Below, in pieces: positions 16,721 through 54,035 of a stretch of DNA of 64,000 bases. The first letter of the stretch is position 1, and the number at the start of each line of letters is the position of its first letter. The notes beneath the pieces were generated by a model that saw only the letters and a program-made list of their open reading frames with translations, did not search any database and was not told the DNA's origin. Source of the DNA: an uncultured Gammaproteobacteria bacterium (GTDB taxonomy: Bacteria > Patescibacteriota > Patescibacteriia > UBA11705 > JABHMO01). Location of the stretch: the NCBI GenBank assembly GCA_964590105.1, contig CAZPYM010000001.1:431782-495781 (forward strand), in the 5' to 3' direction. Both the position numbers and the translations under genes were made by a program.

Positions 16721-17926
16721 TCACATATTATTAGAAATTTCATACATAGGCAGGACAATCGCGGTAATCATCACCGCCACTGCCACGCCGAGAACGATCA
16801 TAATGACCGGTTCGAGCAAAGACATCAGGTTGTCAATGGTATTATTTACTTCCCTAGTGTAAAATTCGCTTATTTTTTCCAATACCGCCTCCATCATTCC
16901 AGTTTCTTCGCCGGTTTCAAGCATTTGCGAGAGCATTTGCGGCACTAATTTGCTTTTGCTAAATTCTTCGCCCAGCGCGCCGCCGCCCTCAACGTTTTGT
17001 TTTGTCTTCAAAAGTAATTCCCGATATATTGAATTTCCAACCATATCAGAAGCAATGCCCAGACCCTCAACAATATCCACTCCACCTATGAGCAAAGTTC
17101 GGAAACTGCGCGCAAACCTGATTACGGCAATATAATTTAATAGTGGGCCAAAAATAGGTAAATTTAATTTTAAATTATCAACCGCCCTTTTTCCTTTTTT
17201 ACTCTTGGAAAAAAGGCGCAGACCACCAACAACCGCAATTATTACAAGTAACAAAAGCCACCAATCATGGATCAAAAATTCGCTGATCCCCTGAATAATC
17301 CTCGTGGCCAGCGGCAATTCCGCACCGGTCTGCGTCAGCATATCAGTTAATTTCGGAACGACAAAAATCATCATCAAAGCGCCGATCGCCACCAAACTGC
17401 AGACAATAAAAATCGGGTAAATCATGGCTCCTTTGATTTTGCTTTTCAAATCATAATCTTTTTCCATCTGATCAGCCAGATAAAGAAGTACTTCCTGCAG
17501 ACGGCCGGATACTTCGCCGGACTTGATAATATTGACAAAAAAACTATCAAAAATTTTCGGGTAGTGCGACAAGGCTTCTGAAAATCTTACTCCACCCTCA
17601 ACTTCCTGCACTACGCTGGCAGTTGTTTTTTTGAGCTTTTTATTTTTAGTTTGCGAAGCCAAATCTTTCAATGCTTCAACCACCGGCACTTCAGCAGAAA
17701 TCAATATTGAAAGCTGCCTGGAAAAAATAACCAAATCCTTTGGTTTTACGCGCCCGACCAGTAAATCAAAATTAAAAATATTACTTTTTTTTTCTTCCAA
17801 AAACAAAACTGAATATCCGCGCTCTTCCAAAAGATCCACGGCAATGCTTTCTGTTTCCGCCTCTACTGCGCCTTCTGACAGCGCCTGTTCATTGTATTTT
17901 TTCGCTCTATAGTTATATAAGGGCAT
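16721..17926 (-). CDS. pilC: type IV pilus assembly platform protein PilC (GspF family); start corrected to MPLYNYRAKKY
   Basis: Two GspF repeats (FSRQLSILISAEVP..., ...FARSFRTLLIGGV), three TM segments, adjacent to pilB. Confidence 0.85.
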   Translation of the reverse strand: MPLYNYRAKKYNEQALSEGAVEAETESIAVDLLEERGYSVLFLEEKKSNIFNFDLLVGRVKPKDLVIFSRQLSILISAEVPVVEALKDLASQTKNKKLKKTTASVVQEVEGGVRFSEALSHYPKIFDSFFVNIIKSGEVSGRLQEVLLYLADQMEKDYDLKSKIKGAMIYPIFIVCSLVAIGALMMIFVVPKLTDMLTQTGAELPLATRIIQGISEFLIHDWWLLLLVIIAVVGGLRLFSKSKKGKRAVDNLKLNLPIFGPLLNYIAVIRFARSFRTLLIGGVDIVEGLGIASDMVGNSIYRELLLKTKQNVEGGGALGEEFSKSKLVPQMLSQMLETGEETGMMEAVLEKISEFYTREVNNTIDNLMSLLEPVIMIVLGVAVAVMITAIVLPMYEISNNM

Positions 17927-17999
17927 AGTAGAGTAGTGAGTGGTGAGTGGTAAGTGGTGCTTGCCCTGTACCCGAACGAAGAGAGTGGTATAGGAAGTG

Positions 18000-18170
18000 G
18001 TGAATAAAACGAAAATCACAAATTCCGAACTACAAATCACAAACAATAAAGTATAAATAACAAATTACAATCAACTTTACTATCAATCAAGTTAGATTCT
18101 GACGCCTTTGGATTCATTTGAAATTTGTAATTTGTTTGTAATTTGGAATCTGTACTTTGTGATTTACAGT
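18000..18170. repeat. intergenic heptamer-word repeats in inverted orientation (ACAAATCACAAACAA...AACAAATTACAATCAA at 18020-18070, then TTTGTAATTTGTTTGTAATTTGG at 18121-18150), a potential long imperfect hairpin between pilB and pilC
   Basis: Read directly; 18121-18145 is the reverse complement of the ACAAATTACAAA words upstream. Confidence 0.65.
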
Positions 18171-18171
18171 T

Positions 18172-19932
18172 CTATTCCTGTTCCTCCACTTCCTTGCTGA
18201 CACGGAAGACTTCTTCCATAGTCGTAACACCAAGCAGTGCCTTGATAAGTCCATCCTGGATAAGGTTTATTCTCCCGAGCCTATCCAGTTCCTTTTCTAC
18301 TTCGACTTGAGCAAATCCATTGGCAATGATTATTCTCATTTTGTCGGAAATAGGCAGAGCCTCCGAAATTACCACGCGACCGCTATAGCCCGTGTTTTTA
18401 CAGACCGGACACCCTTTGCCCTTGTAACCGAACAATTCATTTTTTGTTAAATCAATCTCTGCCGGCAATTTATCCGCCGATATGTCCTTTAATTGCTGGC
18501 GAACTCGAACCGCCACATCTGCAGGCAACGGATATTGCTCTTTGCATTTTGAACAAATTCTGCGGCTCAATCTCTGGGCAATAATCAGATTGAGCGTTGA
18601 AGCCAGCAAAAACGGCTCCAATTTCATATCAATCAAACGCGGTATGGCTCCAAGAGAATCATTGGTATGCAAAGTGGAGAACAACAGATGACCGGTCAGT
18701 GCGGCGTGCACTGCCATTTCCGCAGTTTCATTATCGCGAATCTCTCCAACCATGATAATATCCGGATCTTGTCGCATAAGCGAACGCAAACCCGAGGCAA
18801 AAGTAAATTTTACTTCAGGCCGGACTTGCGCCTGATTGATGCCGGGAATATTGTATTCCACCGGATCCTCAAGCGTAGTGATATTCACCCCTTCCTTATT
18901 TAATTCGCTAAGAATTGAAAAAAGTGTGGTCGATTTACCGGAGCCCGTCGGACCAGTCACCAAAATCATGCCGTAGGTTTGTTCCAGCGCTTTTTTTACT
19001 ATTGCTCTGATTGAATCGCTGAATCCAAGCTGTTCCAAAGTCAAAGCCTTGTTTGACATGTCCAATATTCTGAGAGTAGCTTTTTCCTTGCCGGCCAAGG
19101 GCATAATCGATACTCGCAAATCATATCCTTGCTGACCGGTTTCATATTTAAAGCGACCATCTTGCGGCACTCTGGTTTCATCAATCTTCAAGTCTGATAA
19201 AACCTTTATTCTAGAAATAACAGAATCGTGGATATAGCCAGGCAGAGTAAGTACAGTATTTAATATGCCATCAATGCGGAAACGAACGCGGGAAATATTT
19301 TCGTACGGTTCAATATGAATATCAGAGGCTCGGCTCTCAATGCCATGTTTCACAATCATAGAAACGATTTGAGAAACCGGCGCGCTCTTGATTACCTCTT
19401 CAATATTTTCAGTTGAAACATCTTCAAGTTCTTTTTCTTTCCTTTCTTCTTCCACTTGGCTGACTGCCGTCGCCACGTCCGTGCCAAAAGCTCCATATTT
19501 TTTTAATGCTTCCTGCCAGGCATAAACTGAACATAAATAATATTCCACCGCAAAGTTCTTGTTTGCGGCCCAAAAATCAATTGCCTCTCTGGCATTGTAA
19601 TCTTCCGGCTTGGCAATGGCGATTTTTAATTTTTTGTCCTCCCTGGAAAAACAAATGGCAAAATGCTGCTCAGCCAATGTTAATGGCAGGACAGCCTGGG
19701 CATCTTCGGGAATATTTTGCTGTAAAAGAGAAATATATGGATAATTAAAAAATTCCGCCTCCGTTTGAGCCAGTCTTTCCGCATCGATAAATCCGCCTTT
19801 GACAGCCACTTCTCTTAATTCCTTATTAGCATTTGCGGCTAAAATATTTTCCAGCTCCCGCAATTGCGCCTCCCTGATCACGCCTTTTTGTAATAAAAAA
19901 TTCAGCAGTTTTTTTTGTATTTCTTTAATCAT
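18172..19932 (-). CDS. pilB: type IV pilus assembly ATPase PilB (GspE family)
   Basis: Walker A VTGPTGSGKSTT, Asp box, His box, tetracysteine CSKC...CPVC; 586 aa. Confidence 0.88.
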   Translation of the reverse strand: MIKEIQKKLLNFLLQKGVIREAQLRELENILAANANKELREVAVKGGFIDAERLAQTEAEFFNYPYISLLQQNIPEDAQAVLPLTLAEQHFAICFSREDKKLKIAIAKPEDYNAREAIDFWAANKNFAVEYYLCSVYAWQEALKKYGAFGTDVATAVSQVEEERKEKELEDVSTENIEEVIKSAPVSQIVSMIVKHGIESRASDIHIEPYENISRVRFRIDGILNTVLTLPGYIHDSVISRIKVLSDLKIDETRVPQDGRFKYETGQQGYDLRVSIMPLAGKEKATLRILDMSNKALTLEQLGFSDSIRAIVKKALEQTYGMILVTGPTGSGKSTTLFSILSELNKEGVNITTLEDPVEYNIPGINQAQVRPEVKFTFASGLRSLMRQDPDIIMVGEIRDNETAEMAVHAALTGHLLFSTLHTNDSLGAIPRLIDMKLEPFLLASTLNLIIAQRLSRRICSKCKEQYPLPADVAVRVRQQLKDISADKLPAEIDLTKNELFGYKGKGCPVCKNTGYSGRVVISEALPISDKMRIIIANGFAQVEVEKELDRLGRINLIQDGLIKALLGVTTMEEVFRVSKEVEEQE

Positions 19933-19962
19933 TCAGACGTTATTAATATCAAATTTTTAATT

Positions 19963-20364
19963 TTAATCTTCCTGAACCGGCGCTTCTGGGGCTAGTTCCT
20001 TTGCTTGATTTTGTTTTCCCGCGGCTAAAGTCGCGCTTTTTTCCGCTTCAAAAGGATTTTCTTTTGGGCCCACAATTTCTTCCGCTACGAGCGGCCAATC
20101 GCCATTCTTTTGCAAATCATTAAATTTTTTGTCTTCCTGCAAGTATCCCTTGATTACATTCAAGTCATCAATTGTCTTTGTTCCTTCCCCGGACAAAAAA
20201 TAATAATCAGAAGGGCTCGCAAGCAGACTCTGATATTGCGGTTGAAAATAAAAACGCTCGGCGCTCCAAATTCCCACCGCCAAAATTATTATGGCGGCTA
20301 TAACTATCGCCGCCACAGTCGCCTCTTTATTCTTCCGGCTCCGGCTCTTCATATTGTTCACCAA
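19963..20364 (-). CDS. hypothetical single-TM protein in the pilus locus
   Basis: N-terminal TM (AAIVIAAIIILAVGIW), low-complexity C-terminus; overlaps the upstream gene by 38 nt. Confidence 0.45.
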   Translation of the reverse strand: MVNNMKSRSRKNKEATVAAIVIAAIIILAVGIWSAERFYFQPQYQSLLASPSDYYFLSGEGTKTIDDLNVIKGYLQEDKKFNDLQKNGDWPLVAEEIVGPKENPFEAEKSATLAAGKQNQAKELAPEAPVQED

Positions 20365-21013
20365 AGTAATAAGTATTTAAAGTCAGACTATAAACATTGC
20401 TGTCTGGAGTATAAGCAATTGACTTGATATCCAGTAATCTTAAATTGTTTTCAATATCCGCCAAATAATTTTTAAATGTAAAATAATCTCCGCCCTTGAC
20501 ATTTAGCGTCAAGATTAGTTTATTCAACTGACGAGCGGCGACGCCTTCTTTTTCTTCAAGATTTTCGCCGGCGGCAATATCAAGTGAGCCAAGAAATAAA
20601 TTATTTTTTATGGCCAAGGCCTCCAATTGAACAAATATTCCCGGCAAATCTTTTTCTAAAGGTAATATATCAATAATTTTTTTCGAAGATTCGCCGATGT
20701 TATCAAAATCAATTTTTATTGACTTCGCTCTACCGAGTTCTTGTTCTTTTTCCGCGAGTACTGCTTGTTTTTGAACTATCCTACTTTTAATATCTTCAAT
20801 ATCAGTCCGATACAGCAAAAAACTAGCCGCCACAAAAACGCAAAGCGCTGCCGCTATGACCAATAATAACAATAGTTTATATATTTTAATAAAAGACTCG
20901 GCAAACGACACAAAGCCGCCTCTTTTTATTTTTTTATCGCTAATAATTTCCGACGAATGGCGGATTGTCTCTGGTTTTGGTTTGTTGTTTCGTGCTTCGG
21001 AAGAATTTAACAT
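20327..21013 (-). CDS. PilO-like pilus assembly protein
   Basis: Single TM, coiled coil, then a C-terminal domain with PilO-like topology; position between the pilN-like gene and pilB. Confidence 0.5.
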   Translation of the reverse strand: MLNSSEARNNKPKPETIRHSSEIISDKKIKRGGFVSFAESFIKIYKLLLLLVIAAALCVFVAASFLLYRTDIEDIKSRIVQKQAVLAEKEQELGRAKSIKIDFDNIGESSKKIIDILPLEKDLPGIFVQLEALAIKNNLFLGSLDIAAGENLEEKEGVAARQLNKLILTLNVKGGDYFTFKNYLADIENNLRLLDIKSIAYTPDSNVYSLTLNTYYFGEQYEEPEPEE

Positions 21014-21056
21014 AATAATTTATCAACGAATGCGGATAACACAGGGTGAAGGTTAT

Positions 21057-22175
21057 TTATTTTAGTAAAGCATTGTCCATCAGATGCAGGGTAATATTGA
21101 ATTCTATTGGAAAATAATTTGCCGGCAACTCTGGTTCGGTCATTTCGGTCTCAAAGGCAAACTCGTCTACTGTTTCTTCGGCAGACTGGCTGGCTGAACT
21201 GACTTCCACACTTTGGACAAAATCAGCCTTTTGAAAAATCTGCAGCTGCTCGGCCACGCTATGATAAGTCTTGGTTTTTGCGGTTAATAATATATCCCCA
21301 TTGCTCTCAGCAACAAAATTTGTGTAATAAACATCTTTGGCAATATTGTGTTCTAGCTCGTCAAATAAAGCGGTCCAATATATATGATTTTCCAAAAGCA
21401 CTTGCAATATTTTTGCCCTTTCATACAAATTGTCTGCCTGCAGCTGATCAGAACTGAATGAATTGATCTCCGCTTCAGTCTGCGATATTGACTGCATTAA
21501 ACCAGAATACTCACCAGCCAATTTTATTTTTTCAAATTTGATTACCAAAAACACCCCTGAAAATAACAACAAAAACATCAAAATAACTACCAGCAGCACA
21601 TTCAACCGTCGCCAAAACTGGGTGCGAACAATTCCCACATAATCTTCGGAAATTAAATTGATTTCTGCCGGCGGTTTTTTGAATCTAATCACAGCCAAGC
21701 CCCGTTGAAAAAGGCTGGCCAATGACTTCGAAGTTTTAACATCTTCTATTTCATCCGCTGTTTCACGAATTATTTTTTTACCGGTGCCATTCAACTTATC
21801 AATAATTTGCGGGATCTTCATGCGGAAAGTACTATCCGCTGGTGGCTGTTTGACTTCGATTATAGGCCTTGGCAATGGTGGAATTGGCGGCACCAGGGCT
21901 ATCGACGGAGTCGGAGGTGTTGGCAGAACCGACCTTAATTCAGGTTTTTTTTTAATTCGAAAAATTCCCCTTTTTTGCGGTTGGTCTTTTTGTTCTAGTC
22001 CGATTTTAATTGTCTGCTCAGATTTTGCCAGTCCTGATAAATCCTTTTTTCCTGCTAATTTCTCCGGCAAGTGCATTTCAAATTTCTTGGCCCCCATCGC
22101 CTCCTGCACTTTTTTCTTTTCCAATTCTTCTTTTTCTTTCAAATCATCAGGCAGCAAACTGATTCCATTTGACAT
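21057..22175 (-). CDS. PilN-like pilus assembly protein with a proline-rich N-terminal extension
   Basis: Central TM (LLVVILMFLLLFSGVFLVI) followed by a PilN-like periplasmic region; immediately downstream of pilM. Confidence 0.5.
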   Translation of the reverse strand: MSNGISLLPDDLKEKEELEKKKVQEAMGAKKFEMHLPEKLAGKKDLSGLAKSEQTIKIGLEQKDQPQKRGIFRIKKKPELRSVLPTPPTPSIALVPPIPPLPRPIIEVKQPPADSTFRMKIPQIIDKLNGTGKKIIRETADEIEDVKTSKSLASLFQRGLAVIRFKKPPAEINLISEDYVGIVRTQFWRRLNVLLVVILMFLLLFSGVFLVIKFEKIKLAGEYSGLMQSISQTEAEINSFSSDQLQADNLYERAKILQVLLENHIYWTALFDELEHNIAKDVYYTNFVAESNGDILLTAKTKTYHSVAEQLQIFQKADFVQSVEVSSASQSAEETVDEFAFETEMTEPELPANYFPIEFNITLHLMDNALLK

Positions 22176-22251
22176 ATTTAATTCAGTTTATAAGGTTCGT
22201 AAAATTCGTAAAGTTTATCAAGTTTGCGCCAAAGGCGGAAACTTTTAACTT

Positions 22252-23364
22252 CTACTCAATATCTCTCATGGCAAGCCCGATGGCAGTAGCCAGACGCGGT
22301 CCGATATTTTCCAGAACCGGTTGCATTTCTTCCGGATATATTACCCGCGACCAGGGATTGCCGATGAATGTTTTTATACCCAGATTGTCAGTAAAATATT
22401 TTGACATGTTAAACAACTTGGCGGTGCCACCTGATAAAACTATTCTTTCAATTTTTTTGCCTTTGTTGCCCGGCTGTTCTGTGTAAAAATTCATAGTGTA
22501 TTGGACCTCGTCCATGATTGCTCTCACCGGACGCTCGATAATTTCCGGCAAGGTCGCGCCATCCTGAAGCAACTCTGAATCGCCGGACAAATCCCGCTTA
22601 AATTGTTCTGCCTGACTTTCGGCAACATTTAATGTCTCGGCTATCTCTCTGGTAATTTCCAGCCCGCCAACACCCAGACTCCGACTTAAAAGAGGAATGG
22701 CGTTTTCTATTACAGATATATCAGTATTCACCGCGCCGATATCAACGAGAACAACTGTTGCTTTGTCTTTGCCGACAAGTGAACGCGCCAGGGCAAAAGA
22801 TTCGGTTTCTAAACTAATTAAATCCAGATTAGCTTTCTTGAAAATCTCAATGTATTTTTGAACCACTTCTTTTGAAGCGCCCGTAAGCAACACCTGTAAA
22901 TTTTTTATTTTATCCAACTTGGCTGTTTCTTTGTTGGTCAAAATATCATCTGAAGCTATAACTTTCCAATCCAGAATCATTTCTTCAAGCGGCAACGGCA
23001 AAACTTTTTTTGCCTCCCATTCAACTGCGGCAGTAATTTTTTTTGGCGAAGCCAGATCTTTTTTGCTAATTTCACTCAAAGAAATAATTGAACTAAAAAC
23101 CGCCGGCGCAGGTAAGGCTGTAACCGCTCTTTTGGTAATGACTTTGCTTTGTTGTGTAACTTTTTTGATTAATTCGGCAGTTTGTTCCGGTTGATCAATC
23201 AATTTTGCGCCCTCGCCTTTGAGCGATCGCTCCAAATAACCGTAAGTAACCAATTGCGCCCGGCCATTATTATTGGTCAATTCAACCAGCTTGATACTGC
23301 TGCCGCCAATGTCAATGCCAAGATAATTTGTGTCTGTTGAGCTGGTTTTTGAAAATAGTCCCAT
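22252..23364 (-). CDS. pilM: type IV pilus assembly protein PilM (actin-like ATPase)
   Basis: LGIDIGGSSIKLVEL..., actin-fold phosphate motifs (VDIGAVNTDISV, LSGGTAKL). Confidence 0.8.
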   Translation of the reverse strand: MGLFSKTSSTDTNYLGIDIGGSSIKLVELTNNNGRAQLVTYGYLERSLKGEGAKLIDQPEQTAELIKKVTQQSKVITKRAVTALPAPAVFSSIISLSEISKKDLASPKKITAAVEWEAKKVLPLPLEEMILDWKVIASDDILTNKETAKLDKIKNLQVLLTGASKEVVQKYIEIFKKANLDLISLETESFALARSLVGKDKATVVLVDIGAVNTDISVIENAIPLLSRSLGVGGLEITREIAETLNVAESQAEQFKRDLSGDSELLQDGATLPEIIERPVRAIMDEVQYTMNFYTEQPGNKGKKIERIVLSGGTAKLFNMSKYFTDNLGIKTFIGNPWSRVIYPEEMQPVLENIGPRLATAIGLAMRDIE

Positions 23365-28026: not shown

Positions 28027-28060
28027 CCGCCCATGGCAGACGCCGGGCGGCTTTGTTGTT
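28027..28060 (-). terminator. rho-independent terminator of the metallophosphoesterase cassette
   Basis: GCCGCCC...GGGCGGC stem (28027-28051); on the minus strand it is followed by CTTTTTTTTTGCC (A-tract 28013-28024 on plus). Confidence 0.6.
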
Positions 28061-28800
28061 CAACTTCCTTCATACAGTCGCTTGGTAAGAATACCGTCGA
28101 GATTGAGCTTTTTCATTTCAGCAACCGTTTCATCAATCCTGTACGAAACGCGCCGATACTCTGCCAAGAGCTTGTGGCGGAAAAAATCCACCACCATGTA
28201 ACAGGCGCGCGGGTCATCGTCGCGCGGCTGGCCGACGCTACCCACATTGATGGCGAACTTCGACGGGAAACGAACCTCCAGCGGCGAATGTGACATACCA
28301 AGCTTTACTAATCCATGCTTGATGTGGTAGATTGCCGGCTGATGAGTATGGCCAAAGAACAAAACCGGCGTCGCAACAGCCGTCAACTGCTGGCGGGCGA
28401 TATGTTCGTTGCGAATATACTCCCAGCCGTCAGGATCTGTCCAGTTCGCGTGAACCATTGAAATTCCCAGGTTGGGAATATCCATGGCCATTTCCAGTCC
28501 CCGCAAAAAGGCCAGATCATCAGCCTTGAGCATTTTGGCATTCTGCGCCATTGCCAACAACGCCGGGTAATTATGATTGGCCATGTTGCAGCCATGCCCC
28601 ACGCCAAAATCATGATTTCCCATGAGCGTCAGATTGCAATGCTCCCTGGCCCAAGCAATGCATTCCCGCGGAAACGGACCATAACCGGTCACATCGCCGA
28701 GGCAGTAGATCACATCAACGCCCATTGTGGCAATGTCTTTCGCAACGGCTCGCAGAGCCGGCCAATTGCTGTGAATGTCCGACAATATCGCCGCTCTCAT
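28060..28800 (-). CDS. calcineurin-like metallophosphoesterase (GC-rich cassette)
   Basis: Motifs DIHSN (D-x-H), LGDVTGYGP (GDxxDRG-like), LMGNHD (GNHD/E), FFGHTHQ; GC about 55%; SD AGGAGGA 5 nt upstream of ATG. Confidence 0.75.
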   Translation of the reverse strand: MRAAILSDIHSNWPALRAVAKDIATMGVDVIYCLGDVTGYGPFPRECIAWAREHCNLTLMGNHDFGVGHGCNMANHNYPALLAMAQNAKMLKADDLAFLRGLEMAMDIPNLGISMVHANWTDPDGWEYIRNEHIARQQLTAVATPVLFFGHTHQPAIYHIKHGLVKLGMSHSPLEVRFPSKFAINVGSVGQPRDDDPRACYMVVDFFRHKLLAEYRRVSYRIDETVAEMKKLNLDGILTKRLYEGS

Positions 28801-31574: not shown

Positions 31575-33203
31575 TTAACCCGCTTCTCGAATTCCCTCTT
31601 CGACTTCCACGCTCTTAAATAATTTTTTCTTCAAGCCTGCTACAAAATTCAAAAGCTCTTCTGTCTGCAATAAATATCCGACCAGGACAAAAACTGCAAT
31701 TCCCACGATTGTAGCAATAAGCCCCTGCATGAAAACGCCCCAGAACTTTTGCATATCAACAGAAAGGCCGAGCCAAGTTTTGGTATACTGAACCGCAACT
31801 CCCATTAGCAATGAAGCAAAGGAAATTTTTGCCAGCGCGACGATGATGCCATTACGCCAGATATTCGGTATTCTCAGCTTCAGCCAGACCACAAGCAAAA
31901 CCAGATTAAAAATCGAACTTATAGAAAATCCGAGAGCCAAACCAAGCACGCCAATCTTTTGAATCAGCCACCAGCTCAAAAAAACATTTACCAAAAGGCA
32001 CAAAAAGGCGGCATAAAACGGAATTTTGGTATTGTGCCGGGCATAAAACGCTCTCGCCAACAAAGGAAGCAATGATTGCGCGAACAAGCTAAGACAAAAC
32101 AAACCAAGCGAATTGGCTGTCAAAACCGTATCATTCCAGTCAAATTTTCCAGAACCGAGAATAATGCGGACAATCTGCGCTCGCAGAATTATAAATAAAA
32201 TTGAACAAGGGATTACAAAAAATAAAATTTGTTTAAAAGTGCGCTGAAAAGATGAACAAAAATTTTGTTCATCTTTTCCCGCAAATGACTTTGACAGAGC
32301 CGGAAAAACAGCAATAGCGTAAGACACACCGAATATACCGATGGCAAAACTTTGTAAATTATTTGCTAGGTTAAATATCGCCAAACTTCCGGCGGCCAAA
32401 GTTGAGGCCAGAACAGTAATTATGATCAAATTAAACTGGCCGCTCGCCAAACCCAGGATTCTCGGCCCCATCATTTTAATTATTTTTACAAAATGTGAAT
32501 CCTTAAAATTTAATATAAGACGGTAACCAAACCCAAGCCGGAAAACCGTTGGAATTTGTATTAACAAATGCAGGCCGGCGCCGAGTATCACGCCAAAAGC
32601 CAAACCATAAATATTGTACCGATCCACCAAGAACAAGGCGCCAAAAATAATTCCCAAATTATACATCACCGGCGCCAGTGAAAAAATTAAAAATCGCCTG
32701 AATGATTGCAAGACGCCGCCAAAAACACCGCTAAGTCCGAGCAATATCGGACTAAAAAACATCAGACGAGTTAAATTGATAGTGAGCTGGAGCTTGTCGC
32801 CGCTAAAACCGGGCGTTATGAGCGGCACCAACCACGGACTTAACACTGCCAGGATCAAACATGCGCCGAACAAAAACAAAGCCAGAATATTTAAAATATT
32901 ATTTACAAGATTCCAGGCCAGCTCATTTGTTTTGTATAGCGGGCTTTCTTCATTTTTCAAAAGACCAATAAAAACAGGAATAAAACCCGCGGACAGCGCG
33001 CCGAGAACAATCAAATTGTAAACCAAATCAGGCACGCGAAAAGCCGCGTAGTAAATATCCAGCTCATTGCCGGCGCCAAATTGGCCGGCCAAAATGCGAT
33101 CTCGCACGATTCCCAAAATCCGAGAAAGCAAACCGGCCGCGGCGATCACCACGGCGGCTGAAGTTATGGAAGTGAATTTAGTTGCAAAAAGTTTTTTAAA
33201 CAT
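31575..33203 (-). CDS. murJ: lipid II flippase MurJ
   Basis: 14-TM MviN/MurJ sequence with conserved RILGIVRDRILAGQFGAG...DIYYAAFRVPD N-terminus. Confidence 0.85.
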   Translation of the reverse strand: MFKKLFATKFTSITSAAVVIAAAGLLSRILGIVRDRILAGQFGAGNELDIYYAAFRVPDLVYNLIVLGALSAGFIPVFIGLLKNEESPLYKTNELAWNLVNNILNILALFLFGACLILAVLSPWLVPLITPGFSGDKLQLTINLTRLMFFSPILLGLSGVFGGVLQSFRRFLIFSLAPVMYNLGIIFGALFLVDRYNIYGLAFGVILGAGLHLLIQIPTVFRLGFGYRLILNFKDSHFVKIIKMMGPRILGLASGQFNLIIITVLASTLAAGSLAIFNLANNLQSFAIGIFGVSYAIAVFPALSKSFAGKDEQNFCSSFQRTFKQILFFVIPCSILFIILRAQIVRIILGSGKFDWNDTVLTANSLGLFCLSLFAQSLLPLLARAFYARHNTKIPFYAAFLCLLVNVFLSWWLIQKIGVLGLALGFSISSIFNLVLLVVWLKLRIPNIWRNGIIVALAKISFASLLMGVAVQYTKTWLGLSVDMQKFWGVFMQGLIATIVGIAVFVLVGYLLQTEELLNFVAGLKKKLFKSVEVEEGIREAG

Positions 33204-33229: not shown

Positions 33230-34354
33230 TTATCCAATCAACCGAGCAATCATCAACTCCTCATTTGTCGGAATAACTAAAACTCGCGGCCGATTCGGCA
33301 ATCCTCTGACAATTAGATCGCGCACGTCTTTATTGCGCTCGCCAATCCCTGCGGTAAATACGACAGCGTCAACATTATCAAGAACAACAGTATAAGCGCC
33401 AATATATTTTTGAATTCTATAAACAAACATTTGCAAAGCTAATCGCGAAAGATATTTTTGCTGATCGGTAAATTTCAATGGCGTTGTATATCCGGGGATT
33501 TTATAACCCGAGGCAATCATTATGTCACGCATATCTTTCAGACCTGAAACGCCTTTTAAACCAGATTCAAAGTTTAACAATTTTTCTATCTGACTATCGC
33601 TCATTCCTTCGCGCTTCAAATAAAAAATAATCGCCGGATCAATGTCTCCCGACCGCGTCGACATCATCACTCCTTCTAGCGGAGTAAAGCCCATTGACGT
33701 GTCAATTGATTTCCCTTGCTTTATTGCGGTAACTGAACAACCGCTGCCCAAATGGCAAGTAATCAAATTTGGCTTTTCCTTTCTCAACTGTTTTGCCGCC
33801 TGTAAACTGACATATTGATGAGAAATTCCATGAAAACCATAGCGTCGCAACTGATATTTTTTATAAATTTTATAAGGCAAAGGATACAAAAAAGCATAAT
33901 CTGGCATCGAAGCGTGAAAAGCAGTGTCAAAAACCGCGTAATTTTTTACAGTCGGCAATAGTTTCAGGCAAGCTTTAATGCCGGCAATATTATGCGGGTT
34001 ATGCAAAGGCGCCAACTTATTATATTTTTCCAGCTGCTTCAAAGTTTGAGCAGTTATCAATATCGGCTTAATAAATTTCTCCCCGCCATGAACAACGCGA
34101 TGGCCGACCTTATAAATTTTGTGAAGTTCAACCTGATTTCTCCGCAGAACGTCAATAACCGCACTAAAAGCCTGATCATGATCTGCTATATTTTGCGCGC
34201 GCTTCTCACTTGTTTTTCCAAAATTATAACTGACAAAAGATCCTTTTTGTCCGATTTTTTCAACCAGCCCCGCGGCAACTTCTTTTTGTTTCTCAGTGAA
34301 CAATTTGAATTTCAGGCTTGAACTACCGACATTAATAACCAAAATATATTTCAT
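33230..34354 (-). CDS. ackA: acetate kinase
   Basis: ILVINVGSSSLKFKLF, HRVVHGG, the C-terminal VIPTNEELMIA motif. Confidence 0.85.
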   Translation of the reverse strand: MKYILVINVGSSSLKFKLFTEKQKEVAAGLVEKIGQKGSFVSYNFGKTSEKRAQNIADHDQAFSAVIDVLRRNQVELHKIYKVGHRVVHGGEKFIKPILITAQTLKQLEKYNKLAPLHNPHNIAGIKACLKLLPTVKNYAVFDTAFHASMPDYAFLYPLPYKIYKKYQLRRYGFHGISHQYVSLQAAKQLRKEKPNLITCHLGSGCSVTAIKQGKSIDTSMGFTPLEGVMMSTRSGDIDPAIIFYLKREGMSDSQIEKLLNFESGLKGVSGLKDMRDIMIASGYKIPGYTTPLKFTDQQKYLSRLALQMFVYRIQKYIGAYTVVLDNVDAVVFTAGIGERNKDVRDLIVRGLPNRPRVLVIPTNEELMIARLIG

Positions 34355-34379: not shown

Positions 34380-34952
34380 TTATTCAACAATAATTATTCC
34401 TTCGGTCGGCCCGTCAATTCCCGCGGCATTGGCTTCGTCAGTATCTAGGTGAATCGCCTCTTCATAATTTTCCGCCACTCTCACTTCCACCTCATCAAAT
34501 ACTAATGCCCGCGGGCCTTCCACTGCGACTTTAACGTTTTGTCCGTTTGCCAGCCCGTAATTAGCCGCCTCCTGCGAAGACAAATGAATATGTCTTTTGG
34601 GTACTATCAAGCCCTCTTCCAAGTCCAATTCTCCTTTCGGACCAATAATTTTAACCGCGCCGGAACGAATCACTTTTCCTGACAAGCGCAAAGGAGCTTT
34701 GCAACCGAGAGCAAAAGTATCTGTTCTGGAAACTTCCGCCTGTGTATGACTGCGGCACGGTCCGATGATTCTGACGCCCTCTAACTTCCCCTTCGACCCG
34801 ACTAAAATCACTGTATCAGTACTGGCAAATTCTCCGCCTTGGGATAAATCCTTAACTTTGGCCAATTCATAGCTATCGCCAAAAAGCGTTTCCAAATCGT
34901 GCCTGGTAAAATGGATATGACGCGCTGAAATTTCAATTCTGATTTTTAACAT
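34380..34952 (-). CDS. phosphate acyltransferase of the PduL type (two PduL repeats)
   Basis: Duplicated RHIH(F/L) motifs (ARHIHFTRHD, KRHIHLSSQE), about 190 aa; adjacent to ackA. Confidence 0.65.
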   Translation of the reverse strand: MLKIRIEISARHIHFTRHDLETLFGDSYELAKVKDLSQGGEFASTDTVILVGSKGKLEGVRIIGPCRSHTQAEVSRTDTFALGCKAPLRLSGKVIRSGAVKIIGPKGELDLEEGLIVPKRHIHLSSQEAANYGLANGQNVKVAVEGPRALVFDEVEVRVAENYEEAIHLDTDEANAAGIDGPTEGIIIVE

Positions 34953-34962
34953 AATTTATAAA

Positions 34963-34989
34963 TTATTATTATTATTATTATTATTATTA
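34963..34989. repeat. (ATT)9 microsatellite
   Basis: Read directly. Confidence 0.9.
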
Positions 34990-35121: not shown

Positions 35122-35150
35122 TTGACATTACAATAAAATTTGCTTATATT
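35122..35150 (+). promoter_or_regulatory. sigma70 promoter (TTGACA-17-TATATT, TGc just upstream)
   Basis: TTGACA 35122-35127; TATATT 35145-35150. Confidence 0.5.
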
Positions 35151-35192
35151 TAAATGTCAAACAGTTTTGTCCAACAACGAGGAGGGGCATTA

Positions 35193-35843
35193 ATGGACAA
35201 AAACAGAGCTCCGCCAAAAAAACAGTTCTTTGCCAAAGTAAGGCAAAAAATTTCAGATGAACGTTGTATTGTAGCCATTGAAGTGGCCTACAATATTGCC
35301 AAAGAAGCGCACCGTCAGCAACAGCGCAAAGACGGAGAACGCTATTTTGACCACGTCAAAGCCGTTGCCTGGATTCTGCTCACAGAAACAGGAATTACTG
35401 ATCAATTACGGCTAACAATTCTGTTAACAGCAGCCCTGCTACATGACATTATTGAAGACACCTTTGTTGCCAAGCGCCGGCATCTTAAATTCATGTTTGA
35501 TCAGGTTTCTCCGGACATCACCGCAGTCGCCTGGGAAGTGACAAAAGTCAAGGTGAACGATCCGCAAAAAAAATGGCGAAAACTGCTGGCCAGCAATCGG
35601 GTACCGACCAAGCTGGTCAAAGCGGCCGATCGACTGCACAATCAACGAACTCTGCTTTACTGCAGTCGCCGTCAGATCAGAAAGAAAAACAAAGAAACCA
35701 GAAACACGATCCTGCCATGGCTACGCACCAATCTTGAGACGATAGATGAGCAAAGCCGTCAGCAAATACTCGCCCTGGTCGATAAAATTGAAAAGCAAAC
35801 CGCGGCTAACGAAGAATGGCTGAAAAGCCAGAGAAAAAAATAA
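35193..35843 (+). CDS. HD-domain (p)ppGpp hydrolase-like protein (small alarmone hydrolase, RelA/SpoT HD family)
   Basis: H...R..G.....H...VAWIL...............AALLHDIIEDT HD motif; ATG 35193 with SD GAGGAGGGG; GC about 47%. Confidence 0.7.
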   Translation: MDKNRAPPKKQFFAKVRQKISDERCIVAIEVAYNIAKEAHRQQQRKDGERYFDHVKAVAWILLTETGITDQLRLTILLTAALLHDIIEDTFVAKRRHLKFMFDQVSPDITAVAWEVTKVKVNDPQKKWRKLLASNRVPTKLVKAADRLHNQRTLLYCSRRQIRKKNKETRNTILPWLRTNLETIDEQSRQQILALVDKIEKQTAANEEWLKSQRKK

Positions 35844-35845
35844 AA

Positions 35846-35880
35846 CAGCATCCTTACATCAGGAGCTGTTTATTTTTTTA
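35846..35880 (+). terminator. intrinsic terminator (probably bidirectional, shared with the minus-strand pfkB gene)
   Basis: CAGCATCCT-tacatc-AGGAGCTG followed by TTTATTTTTTTAT. Confidence 0.5.
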
Positions 35881-35897: not shown

Positions 35898-36875
35898 TTA
35901 CAATCTTATTTTCAGTAGTCCGTTCTGCGCGCCCACTCGATACAAAACATTGGCGCTGTTTCTGATTCCGAGACGCAGCGCTTTTTCAAAATCTTCCCAC
36001 TTCACAAGGCCGGCCAATAGTCCGGAAGAAAAAGCATCGCCCGCGCCCACCGTGTCAACTATTCTGTGGATCACACTGACAGCTGGAGCATAAAAATAAT
36101 TATTTAATTCATCAATCGCAACAGCCCCCCTGACTCCCTGCGTAATTACGACTTTTTGCGGGCCGTACGCTTTTATTTTTCGCAGTAAATACTTTGAATC
36201 ATTCAATCTGGTTTTGACTGTTCGAGGATTATCATTTTTCACAAGTTCAATAGCTTCATCTTTATTCAAAATTAAAAGTTCAATGTCTGGTAAAAAGCTG
36301 ATCAATTTATTAAATTCCTTGAGCTGCAACGAGCCCGGATTCCAGGCGATCTTCACATTCCTGCGCGTTTGCCGCACCAGTTTGTCAAATTCCAGCGCCC
36401 AGCTCCTATTAGTTAAAGCAGAAACATAAAACCATTTTGTGCGAAAGTTTCTTAAACCGGCAACTTCCAGAAAACTACTCGCTCCTTTGTAAGTAAAAAT
36501 AGTGTGCTCCTTGTCCCGGGCCGCTGTCATAACAATTGAAAACCCGGTTCTCTCTTCTCGGTCAACGCTGATGAGCCTGGTGCTGATTTGTTTACTTTTT
36601 AAATAAGAATACATTTCTCTGCCAACCTGATCGCGTCCGACATGAACCATGGGCGCGCTATCAAGTCCAAAATTTTTCAAACCAACCGCCGTGTTCAGCG
36701 CTCCGCCGCCATAATTGACAAACACCTCCTTAATGGGGACTTTGGCGCCGTATTCCACTGCCATTAATTTTTGGCGGGTAATGTCCTTGCTGTTTTTTAT
36801 CACGCTTATTTCGTCACTGTAAAACATTATGTCTTTTAGAGCGCTGCCCACGGTGACCACATCAAAAATTTTCAT
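35898..36875 (-). CDS. PfkB-family carbohydrate/nucleoside kinase (start corrected to MKIFDVVTVG)
   Basis: N-terminal GG motif region and C-terminal DTVGAGDAFSSGLLAG signature. Confidence 0.75.
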   Translation of the reverse strand: MKIFDVVTVGSALKDIMFYSDEISVIKNSKDITRQKLMAVEYGAKVPIKEVFVNYGGGALNTAVGLKNFGLDSAPMVHVGRDQVGREMYSYLKSKQISTRLISVDREERTGFSIVMTAARDKEHTIFTYKGASSFLEVAGLRNFRTKWFYVSALTNRSWALEFDKLVRQTRRNVKIAWNPGSLQLKEFNKLISFLPDIELLILNKDEAIELVKNDNPRTVKTRLNDSKYLLRKIKAYGPQKVVITQGVRGAVAIDELNNYFYAPAVSVIHRIVDTVGAGDAFSSGLLAGLVKWEDFEKALRLGIRNSANVLYRVGAQNGLLKIRL

Positions 36876-37114
36876 ACTTTTATTTTTATGTTTTTGTTTT
36901 CTTCCGCAATGAACGGACAGATGTTTTATTAATTTATTAGTTTCTTGATTTTTTATTTTTACAATCGCATCTTTTAATATTATAACACAAAATAAAAAAA
37001 AGGGCGAAGCGTCACCCTTTGTAAACACGGACTTAACGTTATCGTTCATCCACAGATGCGATCACCTGCCTAGGTTTTTCTTCTATAATGATGAACAGAT
37101 AGGTAACCGCGCGT

Positions 37115-46747: not shown

Positions 46748-47131
46748 ATGAAAGAGCTCGGCCGCCATGTGTTGATTGAATTTTATGAATGCGCCACCGA
46801 GGCGCTGAACAACCTAGAATTCATTGAAGAACAAATGCTCGAAGCCGCCAGATTGACGGGCGCGACCATTGTCGGCAAAATCTTCCACCGATTCAGTCCA
46901 CACGGTGTTTCAGGCGCAGTGGTGATTGCTGAGTCGCACCTCACGATTCACACCTGGCCGGAATACGACTACGCGGCAGTTGATCTTTTCACCTGCGGAC
47001 CAACCGTTGATCCGTGGAAAGCTTTCACTCACCTGCAAACCGCAATCGGTTCCAAACGCACTTCTCAGACTGAGATCCGACGCGGGCTTTTTCCACAAAA
47101 CGTCAGCCACAAGCCCGGCGCTGACGGATGA
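46748..47131 (+). CDS. speH: S-adenosylmethionine decarboxylase proenzyme (small SpeH type), GC-rich cassette
   Basis: [11 protein letters not shown]..., self-processing site region ...[11 protein letters not shown]; perfect SD AAGGAGGTG; GC about 52%. Confidence 0.8.
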
Positions 47132-52839: not shown

Positions 52840-52910
52840 GTATTGATTTAATCTGTTCATTTCACTAACCGTCTCAGGCAGCTATGCCACAAATAGCAAA
52901 GGGAGAAAAC

Positions 52911-54035
52911 ATGGGAAAGAAAGCGTGGACATTCGCAATTCTGCTGGGGCTTGTAGCTTCTATTTCCGTACCATGGATTGTTATCAAGATCGTTGCCAAG
53001 ACGCAGAGCCCCGAGACGCACGAGCCGACGATGATGGAGAACGGCGACAACCCGGTAGAGTCCGGCCAGGACGAGCCCACAATGATGGAAAACAGCGACA
53101 ACCCGGTAGAGTCAAGCCAGGACGAACCCACGACTCTTCGCCTGCCGATGTACGTACAAACGACGGTCCAGGCGCGCCTCCTCACGATGGAGGAACTGGC
53201 CTTGGACTTTCCGGAAAACTATGACATTGAACAACGGGGTGACTATCACAGAATCGCCAAGAACTGCACGGCGACCGAACTGGCCACCAAGGCTGATTGC
53301 CTGCCGCTCACCGGCTGGTTCAAGAAGGCTTACTTGAAGTCTGACGGTTCCATTACCGTGGACTTCCAATGCAATCCAAACGACTCGCGAATGTGTACCG
53401 TGCTTTTGCGCGGACCTGTAAGCGATGGAACTGTCTACGGCTGTGGTCTTCCGGATGCGGCCCTCGAAGATATCCTCGTCATGGACTTACTTGGCGCCGG
53501 ATATAGCCTTCTGAAAGACGGGGCAGTCGAATACATCCGCTACGGCGGCAAAGACCTAACCGGCGGCCACCATTCATTCTTCATCAAGGACGGCCTGATC
53601 TATGGTAGGTACGGAACCGATGAAGAGCTCGTGCGCCGCGCTGACGGCTCGTTTGTCCGCGAAAGCGGCTCGTTCGCCGAGCAGATCAGGAAAGAGGCTC
53701 AGGCTAAGAAAGTGCTGGACTTTCTCGGCTCCGGATACTCCATGCGCTACGACGCCGTGTTCGAGTTTATCCAATACGACAAGCAGGACGTGGTGCCTCG
53801 CGGCTACCATTACTACATCCTCCGCGATGATCGGATCTACGGCATTCTCGGCGCGACCGAAGAGGAAGTTCTCGCCAACCGGCCGAAGATTCCGCCAGAA
53901 AAAAGGGATATGATCGGTCAATCATGTCTTTGTCCGGATCTCGGACTTGGGACATGGGTGGAACTCGGGTACAAAGAGCTGGTCTGCGTTCATCTGCCGG
54001 AAAGAGGTCCCATCTGCCATTCCAACTGCTTCTAG
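52911..54035 (+). CDS. secreted hypothetical repeat protein (GC-rich cassette; alternative upstream start 52884)
   Basis: Signal peptide MGKKAWTFAILLGLVASISVPWIV; tandem EPTMMENxDNPVESxQD repeats; duplicated about 55-aa module (LLGAGYSLLKDGAVEYIRYGGKD... / FLGSGYSMRYDAVFEFIQYDKQD...); SD GGGAGA before 52911; GC about 57%. Confidence 0.65.
   Translation: MGKKAWTFAILLGLVASISVPWIVIKIVAKTQSPETHEPTMMENGDNPVESGQDEPTMMENSDNPVESSQDEPTTLRLPMYVQTTVQARLLTMEELALDFPENYDIEQRGDYHRIAKNCTATELATKADCLPLTGWFKKAYLKSDGSITVDFQCNPNDSRMCTVLLRGPVSDGTVYGCGLPDAALEDILVMDLLGAGYSLLKDGAVEYIRYGGKDLTGGHHSFFIKDGLIYGRYGTDEELVRRADGSFVRESGSFAEQIRKEAQAKKVLDFLGSGYSMRYDAVFEFIQYDKQDVVPRGYHYYILRDDRIYGILGATEEEVLANRPKIPPEKRDMIGQSCLCPDLGLGTWVELGYKELVCVHLPERGPICHSNCF

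What the first reader, a model, noticed from the sequence alone, without database searches (positions are those of the whole stretch)
35122..35880. Orphan small alarmone hydrolase (HD domain) on its own promoter and terminator
The HD motif matches RelA/SpoT hydrolase domains (H..R..G....H...VA.IL ... AALLHDIIEDT), but no synthetase domain is present anywhere in the window. The gene has a promoter (TTGACA-17-TATATT), SD GAGGAGGGG and a terminator, with GC above background. Stand-alone (p)ppGpp/(p)ppApp hydrolases act as antitoxins to toxic alarmone synthetases and in phage-host conflicts. In a reduced CPR-like genome an orphan copy is notable.
Basis: partly seen in the sequence, partly recalled or inferred. 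Interest (0 to 1): 0.55.

Follow-up and report, generated by a model that had tools for sequence, protein, structure and literature searches.

The report
Stand-alone alarmone hydrolase in CPR bacterium
This is an ordinary-looking, intact single-domain RelA/SpoT-type hydrolase gene that an ultra-small (CPR/Patescibacteria) bacterial lineage keeps at a fixed place among housekeeping genes; it is not a toxin-antitoxin or phage-conflict gene, and whether the genome lacks any alarmone-making enzyme could not be checked here.

Summary
Window 35193..35843 (+) encodes a 216-aa protein made only of a RelA/SpoT-type HD domain. All hydrolase motifs are intact: R45, H54, H84-D85, E88-D89, D146-R-L-H-N150. 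They are invariant in 24 relatives down to 40% identity. The gene has a near-consensus promoter whose -35 box is invariant in five divergent relatives, a Shine-Dalgarno site and a hairpin plus U-tract terminator. It does not resemble YfbR-type nucleotidases.

A marker protein places the organism among Kuenenbacteria/Falkowbacteria-like CPR. The arrangement PTAC(-) | hydrolase(+) | PfkB(-) recurs in four relatives. No synthetase domain or motif occurs in the 64-kb window or in 187 kb around ten homologues. There are no defence-system hits and no close phage relatives, so an antitoxin or anti-defence role is unlikely. GC content is within 1 SD of the window's genes.

The protein is closest to the hydrolase half of long Rel/SpoT enzymes. 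It has Lys, not Asp, at the Mesh1 D91 position that confers NADPH phosphatase activity. I therefore predict a Mn2+-dependent (p)ppGpp/(p)ppApp 3'-pyrophosphohydrolase. Verdict: new member of a known kind, modest interest.

The parts
35122..35150 (+). Sigma-70-type promoter: -35 TTGACA (35122-35127), 17-nt spacer, -10 TATATT (35145-35150)
   Evidence: 11/12 consensus match, the best in the region. TTGACA is invariant and a TATAnT-type -10 lies at the same spacing in relatives L091, L093, L094 and L095.
35179..35187 (+). Shine-Dalgarno sequence GAGGAGGGG, 5 nt before the start codon
   Evidence: Read directly from the sequence. Purine-rich GGAG-type boxes sit at the same place in relatives.
35193..35843 (+). 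Coding sequence of the 216-aa single-domain RSH hydrolase (small alarmone hydrolase). Catalytic residues are R45, H54, H84, D85, E88, D89, K143, D146, H149 and N150. The C-terminal helix 186-214 lies outside the Pfam domain.
   Evidence: Pfam HD_4 and NCBIfam spoT_relA N-terminus. PDB hits to Rel/SpoT/Mesh1. AF2 model with pLDDT 93 and Foldseek top hits Rel, Mesh1, RelSeq and SpoT. Motif invariance in 24 family members.
35843..35879 (+). Intrinsic terminator: bulged hairpin 35843-35871 followed by AUUUUUUU. It lies between the convergent hydrolase and PfkB genes, with an A-rich run on its 5' side, so it probably works in both directions.
   Evidence: RNA fold -12.9 kcal/mol, z -4.0 against shuffles. 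Sequence. Bidirectionality is inferred.
34380..34952 (-). Context, not part of the unit: divergently transcribed PduL-type phosphotransacylase (PTAC), followed by acetate kinase (33230-34354) and MurJ (31575-33203)
   Evidence: Pfam. The same neighbours occur in relatives.
35898..37049 (-). Context, not part of the unit: convergent PfkB-family kinase. The likely true start is M59 at 36875, giving 325 aa.
   Evidence: Pfam PfkB matches residues 101-378. Homologues in relatives are 325-349 aa.

Best explanation
The gene encodes a catalytically competent, monofunctional RSH-family hydrolase. Its predicted activity is Mn2+-dependent removal of the 3'-pyrophosphate from (p)ppGpp and probably (p)ppApp, giving GTP/GDP or ATP/ADP.

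It is a vertically inherited chromosomal housekeeping gene of a Kuenenbacteria/Falkowbacteria-like CPR lineage. It is transcribed alone from a strong, conserved sigma-70-type promoter and ended by a hairpin terminator shared with the convergent PfkB gene.

Its sequence is closest to the hydrolase half of long Rel/SpoT enzymes. It keeps their DRLHNxRT and VTK motifs, so it should behave like the 'off-switch' half of a Rel enzyme without the synthetase, TGS and ACT parts.

Shown: domain identity, intact and conserved catalytic residues, fold, transcription signals, conserved synteny, and no synthetase nearby.

Inferred: substrate, metal dependence, constitutive expression, and the source of the alarmone. 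That source could be an unlinked synthetase elsewhere in the genome, or nucleotides of foreign origin.
For: - Domain: HD_4 above the Pfam cutoff; only the N-terminal hydrolase part of the spoT_relA models matches.
- A family profile hits long-RSH hydrolase domains at 1e-22 to 1e-19, Mesh1 at about 1e-15, other bacterial SAHs at 1e-9 to 1e-6 and the Bacteroides ppApp hydrolase at 1e-4.
- The pairwise alignment to B. subtilis Rel is collinear from residue 10 to 176 and matches AHRxQxRxxGExYxxH, LLHDxxEDT and ADRLHNxRTL.
- R45, G48, H54, H84, D85, E88, D89, T90, K143 and D146-N150 are invariant in 24 sequences. R45, H54, H84, D85, E88 and N150 are fully invariant, and D146 (215/216) and D89 (208/216) nearly so, in 216 more distant stand-alone homologues.
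- AF2 model pLDDT 93, pTM 0.91. Foldseek probability is 1.00 to Rel, Mesh1, RelSeq and SpoT.
- hhalign places K118 opposite Mesh1 D91, the Asp that gives Mesh1 and Xanthomonas SAH their phosphatase/NADPH activity (PMC11554896). The family has K in 20/24 and N in 4/24, never D.
- The promoter is conserved and the terminator folds well.
- Synteny PTAC | SAH | PfkB ... GlyRS-RRF-HolB recurs in four relatives.
- The exact protein was recovered on 8 contigs from several samples.
Against: - No enzymology exists for this subfamily.
- No synthetase was found in the window or beside any homologue. The presence of a physiological substrate in this organism is therefore unproven.
- RSH hydrolases can be promiscuous: XccSAH hydrolyses pGpp, ppGpp, pppGpp, pppApp and NADPH (PMC9765508).
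- The close family carries a 6-residue insertion between H54 and H84 and a 3-residue insertion before T117, both of unknown effect.
- The D91 rule comes from one study of a few enzymes.
Confidence: 0.62

Rival explanations
1. True genome-level orphan. The lineage has lost every alarmone synthetase and keeps only the hydrolase. The enzyme would then clear alarmones that arrive from outside: scavenged host nucleotides, (p)ppApp made by injected Tas1-type toxins, or tRNA 3'-pyrophosphorylation by foreign toxSAS. It might instead serve a non-alarmone metabolic role.
For: - No synthetase domain or E-x-Q-x-R-T motif in 64 kb of the genome.
- None in 187 kb around ten homologues, against a positive control of 77/79.
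- Precedent exists. Several archaea and all metazoa carry an SAH without any synthetase (PMC3153485), and at least one Saccharibacteria genome is reported unable to make (p)ppGpp (PMC6031116).
- CPR bacteria depend on imported nucleotides (established knowledge).
Against: - Only about 11% of the source contig was readable, and SAS or long RSH genes need not be linked to an SAH.
- Most Saccharibacteria are reported to have (p)ppGpp synthesis genes (PMC6031116).
- The strict conservation of Rel-like substrate motifs fits an endogenous alarmone cycle equally well.
Confidence: 0.25
2. Mesh1-like metabolic phosphatase. The main substrate is NADPH (to NADH) or another 2'/3'-monophosphorylated nucleotide rather than an alarmone.
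For: - Mesh1 is among the best structural and sequence matches (38% identity over 140 residues).
- Orphan SAHs can act on NADPH (PMC9765508).
- The neighbours PfkB kinase and PNPOx-like protein have cofactor or sugar-phosphate chemistry.
Against: - The Asp that confers phosphatase activity (Mesh1 D91) is Lys118 here and is never Asp in the family (PMC11554896).
- The DRLHNxRT motif is of the long-RSH type, where Mesh1 has DKLYNLRD.
- The family profile scores long RSH hydrolase domains about 7 orders of magnitude better than Mesh1.
Confidence: 0.07
3. Type IV antitoxin of a toxic small alarmone synthetase, or an anti-defence or phage-derived hydrolase.
For: SAHs of the PbcSpo and PaSpo subfamilies, including phage ones, neutralise all tested toxSAS (PMC7229694). 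The gene stands alone on the opposite strand from its neighbours.
Against: - No toxSAS or other PF04607 gene is adjacent here or in nine homologous loci.
- Position and promoter are conserved among housekeeping genes across relatives down to 50% identity and one more distant.
- No PADLOC hit for it or its neighbours.
- The best phage matches are about 30% identical, and there is no IMG/VR relative.
- GC and GC3 are typical of the window.
- Similarity to the P. aeruginosa SAH structures (6yvc, 6z3n) and the Bacteroides ppApp hydrolase is weak.
Confidence: 0.04
4. Generic HD-superfamily nucleotidase (YfbR/5'-deoxynucleotidase type), or a catalytically dead relic of a truncated Rel gene.
For: The HD superfamily is broad. 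The protein is collinear with the N-terminus of long Rel enzymes and could be a truncation product.
Against: - No hit to HD_3/YfbR-type families or structures even at E<=1.
- Every catalytic residue is invariant across the family, and the gene is kept with its promoter in diverged genomes. That argues for selection on activity.
- No synthetase remnant follows the gene; only 54 nt separate it from PfkB.
Confidence: 0.02

Closest known systems
Hydrolase (HD) domain of long bifunctional Rel/SpoT enzymes (B. subtilis Rel 8acu/6yxa, M. tuberculosis Rel 5xnx, RelSeq 1vj7, T. thermophilus Rel 6s2t, A. baumannii SpoT 7qpr)
   Same: Best sequence and profile matches (E 1e-22 to 1e-19). The alignment is collinear from the N-terminus (residues 10-176 against 10-174). 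The motifs are the same: RxxGxxYxxH, HD, ED, VTK, DRLHNxRT. The fold is the same.
   Different: No synthetase, TGS, helical or ACT domains: 216 aa against roughly 560-800. It ends in one long extra helix (186-214). It has small insertions of 6 and 3 residues within the domain. The intramolecular synthetase/hydrolase switch of Rel enzymes cannot operate.
Mesh1 / HDDC3 (metazoan SAH; 3nr1, 5vxa, 3nqw) and the bacterial Mesh1-L group of Atkinson et al. 2011
   Same: Single-domain RSH hydrolase of similar size. It is the best-matching stand-alone structure (TM about 0.75-0.79 normalised to Mesh1) and shares 38% identity over the core. Mesh1 is found in organisms that lack a synthetase (PMC3153485).
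   Different: Lys118 replaces the phosphatase-conferring Asp91. The motif is DRLHNxRT where Mesh1 has DKLYNLRD. Assignment to Mesh1-L could not be tested because the published subfamily HMMs were not available.
Characterised bacterial SAHs: C. glutamicum RelH (7qoc/7qod), T. denticola TdActSpo2 (7p1y), P. aeruginosa SAH (6yvc, 6z3n), Listeria Lmo0812 (4yf1), Bacteroides (p)ppApp hydrolase (7smg), Xanthomonas XccSAH
   Same: Same architecture (HD domain only) and the same catalytic residues. Housekeeping 'orphan' SAHs without a partner toxin are documented (XccSAH, PMC9765508).
   Different: Much weaker sequence similarity (1e-9 to 1e-4), so this is a different subfamily. XccSAH has Asp at the Mesh1-D91 position (PMC11554896); this protein does not.
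SAH antitoxins and phage SAHs (C. marina ATfaRel, phage PVP-SE1 PbcSpo, phage SSU5 PaSpo; PMC7229694)
   Same: Stand-alone RSH hydrolase. If active, it would very probably also neutralise toxSAS products in a heterologous assay.
   Different: No adjacent toxSAS, no mobile or phage context, conserved chromosomal synteny.

Membership tests
RSH superfamily hydrolase domain (Pfam HD_4, PF13328) | Sequence match to the family model above its curated threshold | tested here: met
   42 bits against a cutoff of 27.2, covering 144 of 156 model positions. NCBIfam spoT_relA matches model positions 1-143.
RSH superfamily hydrolase domain | 2H2D metal site and ED diad: H54, H84-D85, D146; E88-D89; plus R45 and N150 | tested here: met
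   All are present and aligned to B. subtilis Rel and Mesh1. They are invariant in 24 family members. In 216 wider homologues R45, H54, H84, D85, E88 and N150 are invariant, D146 is 215/216 and D89 is 208/216.
RSH superfamily hydrolase domain | All-helical HD fold superposable on Rel/SpoT/Mesh1 | tested here: met
   AF2 pLDDT 93. The top 40 Foldseek hits are all RSH hydrolases at probability 1.00.
RSH superfamily hydrolase domain | Mn2+-dependent hydrolysis of the 3'-pyrophosphate of (p)ppGpp | not testable with these tools
   Needs an enzyme assay.
Small alarmone hydrolase (SAH) class | HD domain only: no SYNTH, TGS or ACT domains in the same polypeptide | tested here: met
   216 aa with only HD_4/HD hits. 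The terminator follows 0-36 nt after the stop codon, and only 54 nt separate the gene from the convergent gene. 23 homologues are 203-252 aa.
Named SAH subfamily (Mesh1-L, PbcSpo, PaSpo, etc. of Atkinson 2011 / Jimmy 2020) | Best hit to the subfamily HMM, or placement in the published tree | not testable with these tools
   The HMMs and datasets are not held. As a proxy, the profile is nearer to long RSH and Mesh1 than to P. aeruginosa SAH, RelH, TdActSpo2 or the ppApp hydrolase.
toxSAS-SAH type IV toxin-antitoxin module | Adjacent (bicistronic or overlapping) toxic SAS gene with a RelA_SpoT (PF04607) domain | tested here: not met
   The neighbours are PTAC and PfkB on the opposite strand. There is no PF04607 hit or synthetase motif in the window or in ten homologous loci.
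toxSAS-SAH type IV toxin-antitoxin module | Mobile, variable, defence-island or prophage context | tested here: not met
   Synteny and promoter are conserved in four relatives. PADLOC gives none. Phage and IMG/VR searches give nothing close. GC is typical.
Mesh1-type NADPH / 3'-monophosphate phosphatase | Asp at the Mesh1 D91 position, supplying a ligand to the second metal (PMC11554896) | tested here: not met
   hhalign pairs K118 with D91. The family has K 20/24 and N 4/24. The wider set has K 159/216, with Asp not among the six commonest residues.
YfbR-type 5'-deoxynucleotidase (HD_3) | Sequence match to YfbR-like HD families or structures | tested here: not met
   No such family or chain is listed at E<=1.
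Genome-level 'orphan' SAH (no RSH synthetase in the organism) | Absence of any PF04607 domain in the complete genome | not testable with these tools
   Only the 64-kb window is readable. The 563,767-bp contig that carries the gene is not returned by the look-up. The single genome-collection scan was swamped by generic long-RSH genes.

The most novel reading that the evidence does not exclude
A whole CPR lineage (Kuenenbacteria/Falkowbacteria-like) has discarded every (p)ppGpp/(p)ppApp synthetase. It nevertheless keeps, under purifying selection and at a fixed locus with a strong promoter, a Rel-derived pyrophosphohydrolase. In an epibiont that lives on scavenged host nucleotides, the enzyme would then act as a one-way 'alarmone filter'. 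It would destroy host- or competitor-made alarmones, or pyrophosphorylated tRNA ends, that the cell cannot make itself. That would be a bacterial counterpart of the Mesh1 puzzle in animals.
Probability: 0.25. Interest if true: 0.55.

Novelty: new member of a known kind. Interest (0 to 1): 0.3.

Why it matters
Small alarmone hydrolases are well known, so the gene itself adds little. Three points are worth keeping.

1. The family is routinely mis-annotated as 'bifunctional (p)ppGpp synthetase/hydrolase' or 'GTP pyrophosphokinase'. That would make metabolic reconstructions of CPR genomes wrongly credit them with alarmone synthesis.

2. It is a stably inherited core gene in one CPR lineage, not a conflict gene. 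It therefore bears on how ultra-small symbionts handle stringent-response nucleotides, a topic on which full-text searches found essentially nothing.

3. If the full genomes prove to lack any synthetase, this lineage would be a clean bacterial case of hydrolase-only alarmone metabolism, and the question could be settled with one HMM search and a simple enzyme assay.

Tried and rejected
1. Genome-wide synthetase check by walking along the source contig. The exact-protein look-ups never return the 563,767-bp contig, and only short metagenome contigs are served. I abandoned this route.

2. Genome-collection scan with the family alignment. The 79 long-RSH loci were reused as a positive control for the synthetase motif (77/79).

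3. Literature on ppGpp in CPR/Patescibacteria/Parcubacteria. The only relevant item is one sentence on Saccharibacteria (PMC6031116). The supplements of Jimmy et al. 2020 are not held.

4. Rfam and tRNA scans of the window, looking for ppGpp/PRPP riboswitches or taxonomic markers, found nothing.

5. Phage origin: the tblastn hits are about 30% identical and mostly host Rel genes inside 'phage' records. IMG/VR gave none. The PHROG hits are generic phosphohydrolase families.

6. Long proteins among the nearest representatives. Those of 318-561 aa are HD-only with extensions, except P0246 (HD + RelA_SpoT + TGS, 561 aa). By eye, P0246 and the other HD+synthetase fragments look like ordinary Firmicutes/Bacteroidetes Rel. 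They were therefore not usable as CPR synthetase seeds, and the third homology search was left unused.

7. The BLASTP pairwise alignment to Mesh1 misaligns the VT(K/D) region. I replaced it with hhalign.

8. A formal phylogeny against the named SAH subfamilies was not attempted. No reference set or tree software beyond neighbour-joining was available, and about 150 alignable positions would not resolve it.
Full report
**What is there.** The mechanical ORF at 35154..35843 (+) is best read from the ATG at 35193, giving 216 aa. That start is preceded by GAGGAGGGG at 35179-35187 with a 5-nt gap. Gene callers used it on eight independent contigs carrying the identical protein. It is also where 23 homologues begin. 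The earlier ATG at 35154 starts only 4 nt after the -10 box ends, at or before the expected transcription start.

The promoter TTGACA-17-TATATT (35122-35150) matches 11 of 12 consensus positions, the best match in the region. In an alignment of the upstream regions of four relatives, the -35 hexamer is invariant. Those relatives' proteins are 74%, 59% and 50% identical to the window protein, and a fourth (P0124) is more distant still. A TATAnT box follows at the same spacing.

Starting at the last base of the TAA stop codon (35841-35843), a bulged hairpin at 35843-35871 folds at -12.9 kcal/mol. That is z = -4.0 against shuffles, and a U-run follows. The pattern scanner missed it only because it does not allow bulges. 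The hairpin sits in the 54-nt gap between the hydrolase and the convergent PfkB gene, so it probably terminates both; this is an inference.

The gene's GC content is 45.9%, against 42.2 +/- 5.2% for the window's genes.

**What the protein is.**
- Pfam gives HD_4 (PF13328) at 42 bits, above the cutoff of 27.2, and nothing else credible.
- NCBIfam matches only the first ~143-164 positions of the ~690-700-position spoT_relA models.
- Against PDB sequences the best hits are the hydrolase domains of B. subtilis, M. tuberculosis, S. aureus, S. equisimilis and T. thermophilus Rel, then Mesh1.
- A profile of 24 family members sharpens the order. Long RSH enzymes score 1e-22 to 1e-19 and Mesh1 1e-15 to 1e-13. 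C. glutamicum RelH, T. denticola ActSpo2, L. levettii SAH and P. aeruginosa SAH score 1e-9 to 1e-7, Listeria Lmo0812 scores 2e-6, and the Bacteroides (p)ppApp hydrolase scores 1e-4.
- The alignment to B. subtilis Rel is collinear from residue 10 to 176. It matches AHRxQxRxxGExYxxH, LLHDxxEDT and ADRLHNxRTL.
- R45, G48, H54, H84, D85, E88, D89, T90, K143, D146, R147, L148, H149 and N150 are invariant in the 24-member alignment, which goes down to 40% identity.
- In 216 more distant stand-alone homologues the core metal and ED residues are invariant or nearly so.
- An AlphaFold model built on that alignment is confident (pLDDT 93.2, pTM 0.91). All of its top Foldseek matches are RSH hydrolases.
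- Beyond the domain there is one long C-terminal helix (186-214).

**Substrate class.** A 2024 study shows that Mesh1 owes its phosphatase activity (NADPH, ppGp) to Asp91, which ligands a second metal. The promiscuous Xanthomonas SAH has the same Asp, whereas SpoT does not hydrolyse ppGp efficiently (PMC11554896).

hhalign then aligns Mesh1 T90-D91 with T117-K118 of the window protein. The family has K in 20 of 24 sequences and N in 4 of 24. Asp is not among the common residues in the wider set.

Together with the long-RSH form of the DRLHNxRT motif (Mesh1 has DKLYNLRD), this predicts a pyrophosphohydrolase acting on (p)ppGpp-type substrates rather than a Mesh1-like phosphatase. Discrimination between guanosine and adenosine alarmones cannot be inferred.

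**Organism and context.** The window's ribosome recycling factor finds its nearest named relatives in Candidatus Kuenenbacteria, Candidatus Falkowbacteria and 'Patescibacteria group'. The Kuenenbacteria hit lies on an 84,377-bp contig, the same length as the longest contig carrying the 74%-identical hydrolase P0003. The gene content also fits a CPR genome: a type IV pilus cluster, PduL-type phosphotransacylase plus acetate kinase, and many ORFs without families.

The hydrolase is a lone + strand gene. On one side are PTAC-AckA-MurJ, transcribed divergently. On the other are PfkB, a PNPOx-like protein, GlyRS and RRF, with PfkB convergent.

The same arrangement recurs in four relatives: PTAC(-) | hydrolase(+) | PfkB(-), flanked by MurJ, LepA, GlyRS, RRF, a BNR protein, HolB and a glycosyltransferase. 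In one of them, acetate kinase is replaced by an ADP-forming acetyl-CoA synthetase. This is the signature of a vertically inherited core gene.

**The family.** An exhaustive HMM search of 1.84 billion cluster representatives finds 41 clusters at E<1e-30 and 5045 at E<1e-10. Nearly all of the top 150 are 180-240 aa. The few longer ones are HD-only with extensions, except one HD + RelA_SpoT + TGS protein at 4e-25. Sources label members 'bifunctional (p)ppGpp synthetase/hydrolase' or 'GTP pyrophosphokinase', which is wrong for a protein with no synthetase domain.

**Is it an antitoxin or conflict gene?** toxSAS-SAH modules are adjacent two- or three-gene loci, and phage SAHs belong to the PbcSpo and PaSpo subfamilies (PMC7229694). 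The evidence here points the other way:
- No PF04607 domain occurs in 30 scanned ORFs of the window.
- The E-x-Q-x-[RK]-[TS] synthetase signature is absent from every real ORF in the window. In 187 kb around ten homologues there is a single lysine-variant match (EYQQKT, L099), in a 128-aa called gene with no Pfam family, which I judge to be chance. The same test detects 77 of 79 long-RSH loci.
- PADLOC finds nothing for the gene, its neighbours or the window's unannotated ORFs.
- Phage records give only ~30%-identical matches, and IMG/VR gives none.

I therefore reject the antitoxin / anti-defence reading for this locus, at a confidence of about 0.04.

**Is it an orphan?** Within 64 kb, yes. 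Genome-wide, unknown. The 563,767-bp contig that carries the gene is listed but never served, and the one genome-collection scan was swamped by generic Rel genes.

Precedent exists both ways. Most Saccharibacteria are said to encode (p)ppGpp synthesis, and one does not (PMC6031116). Several archaea and all metazoa carry an SAH with no synthetase (PMC3153485). I put about 0.25 on a true hydrolase-only genome.

**Verdict.** It is wrong or unsupported on the conflict framing, and untested on orphan status.

The gene is a new member of a known kind: a Rel-like small alarmone hydrolase that is a conserved housekeeping gene of a CPR lineage. Interest is modest (0.3). It would rise to roughly 0.55 if complete genomes of the lineage prove to lack any alarmone synthetase.

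Noticed in passing
window 34962-34988: A perfect (ATT)9 microsatellite lies 10-36 nt upstream of the PTAC start codon, in the divergent intergenic region. It is the only ATT run of 4 or more units in the 64-kb window. The four contigs of the same population that span it also have 9 units, three Logan assemblies break exactly at it, and it is absent from the relatives L091, L093, L094 and L095. No obvious Shine-Dalgarno sequence precedes PTAC.
   Followed up: partly
window 3539-4951 (-) and 52884-54035 (+): Two long ORFs with no Pfam or PADLOC family have 55-56% GC (GC3 about 67%), against a window mean of 42%. The second contains a near-duplicated acidic segment (…EPTMMEN(G/S)DNPVES(G/S)QD…, read). 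These could be horizontally acquired or unusual secreted proteins.
   Followed up: no
window 28060-28800 (-), 46748-47131 (+): A calcineurin-like phosphoesterase (52.6% GC) and the SAM decarboxylase gene (53.4% GC) are also well above the window's GC. The metallophosphoesterase keeps its place next to RecJ and LepA in relative L093.
   Followed up: no
window 35898-37049 (-): The PfkB kinase ORF is called at 383 aa, but the Pfam match starts at residue 101 and homologues in relatives are 325-349 aa. The real start is probably M59 (36875), giving 325 aa.
   Followed up: partly
L091 7072-9153 versus window 33230-34354: In the 74%-identical relative (Cand. Kuenenbacteria per its co-located RRF), acetate kinase at the conserved position next to PTAC is replaced by a 693-aa ADP-forming acetyl-CoA synthetase-type protein (CoA_binding / Succ_CoA_lig / ATP-grasp_5). 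This looks like a swap of the ATP-yielding step.
   Followed up: no
L096 9226-10615: Two stand-alone HD_4 hydrolase genes sit in tandem, embedded among aminoacyl-tRNA synthetase genes (IleRS, ArgRS, ThrRS, and Asp/Lys-type). The bacterium is apparently not CPR, since an outer-membrane protein and a histidine kinase are nearby.
   Followed up: no
L097 10001-12852; L100 5208-9099: In a Terrybacteria-type contig the hydrolase is convergent with recG, recalling the E. coli spoT-trmH-recG neighbourhood (from my own knowledge), and lies downstream of prkA-DUF444-spoVR. In L100 it sits between a CCA-adding enzyme plus NUDIX gene and a ribosome hibernation factor (S30AE) plus SecA.
   Followed up: no
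L098 (196-kb contig, 8001-8645 and 15620-15892): A more distant family member lies in a run of many small same-strand ORFs without families, with PDDEXK nuclease, metallophosphatase, ClpP and a second HD_4 fragment. The region looks phage- or element-like, unlike the window's locus.
   Followed up: no
window 15196-23364 (-): A type IV pilus cluster is present: two N-methyl-motif pilins, PilC, PilB ATPase, PilO-, PilN- and PilM-like genes. PilO, PilN and one pilin rest on Pfam; the second pilin, PilC, PilB and PilM were named by eye from translations.
   Followed up: no
databases (P0003 = NQT49916.1, P0010, P0007, P0019 etc.): Members of this HD-only family are annotated by their sources as 'bifunctional (p)ppGpp synthetase/hydrolase', 'GTP pyrophosphokinase' or 'GTP diphosphokinase', although they have no synthetase domain. 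This is a systematic mis-annotation that could inflate apparent ppGpp-synthesis capacity in CPR genomes.
   Followed up: partly
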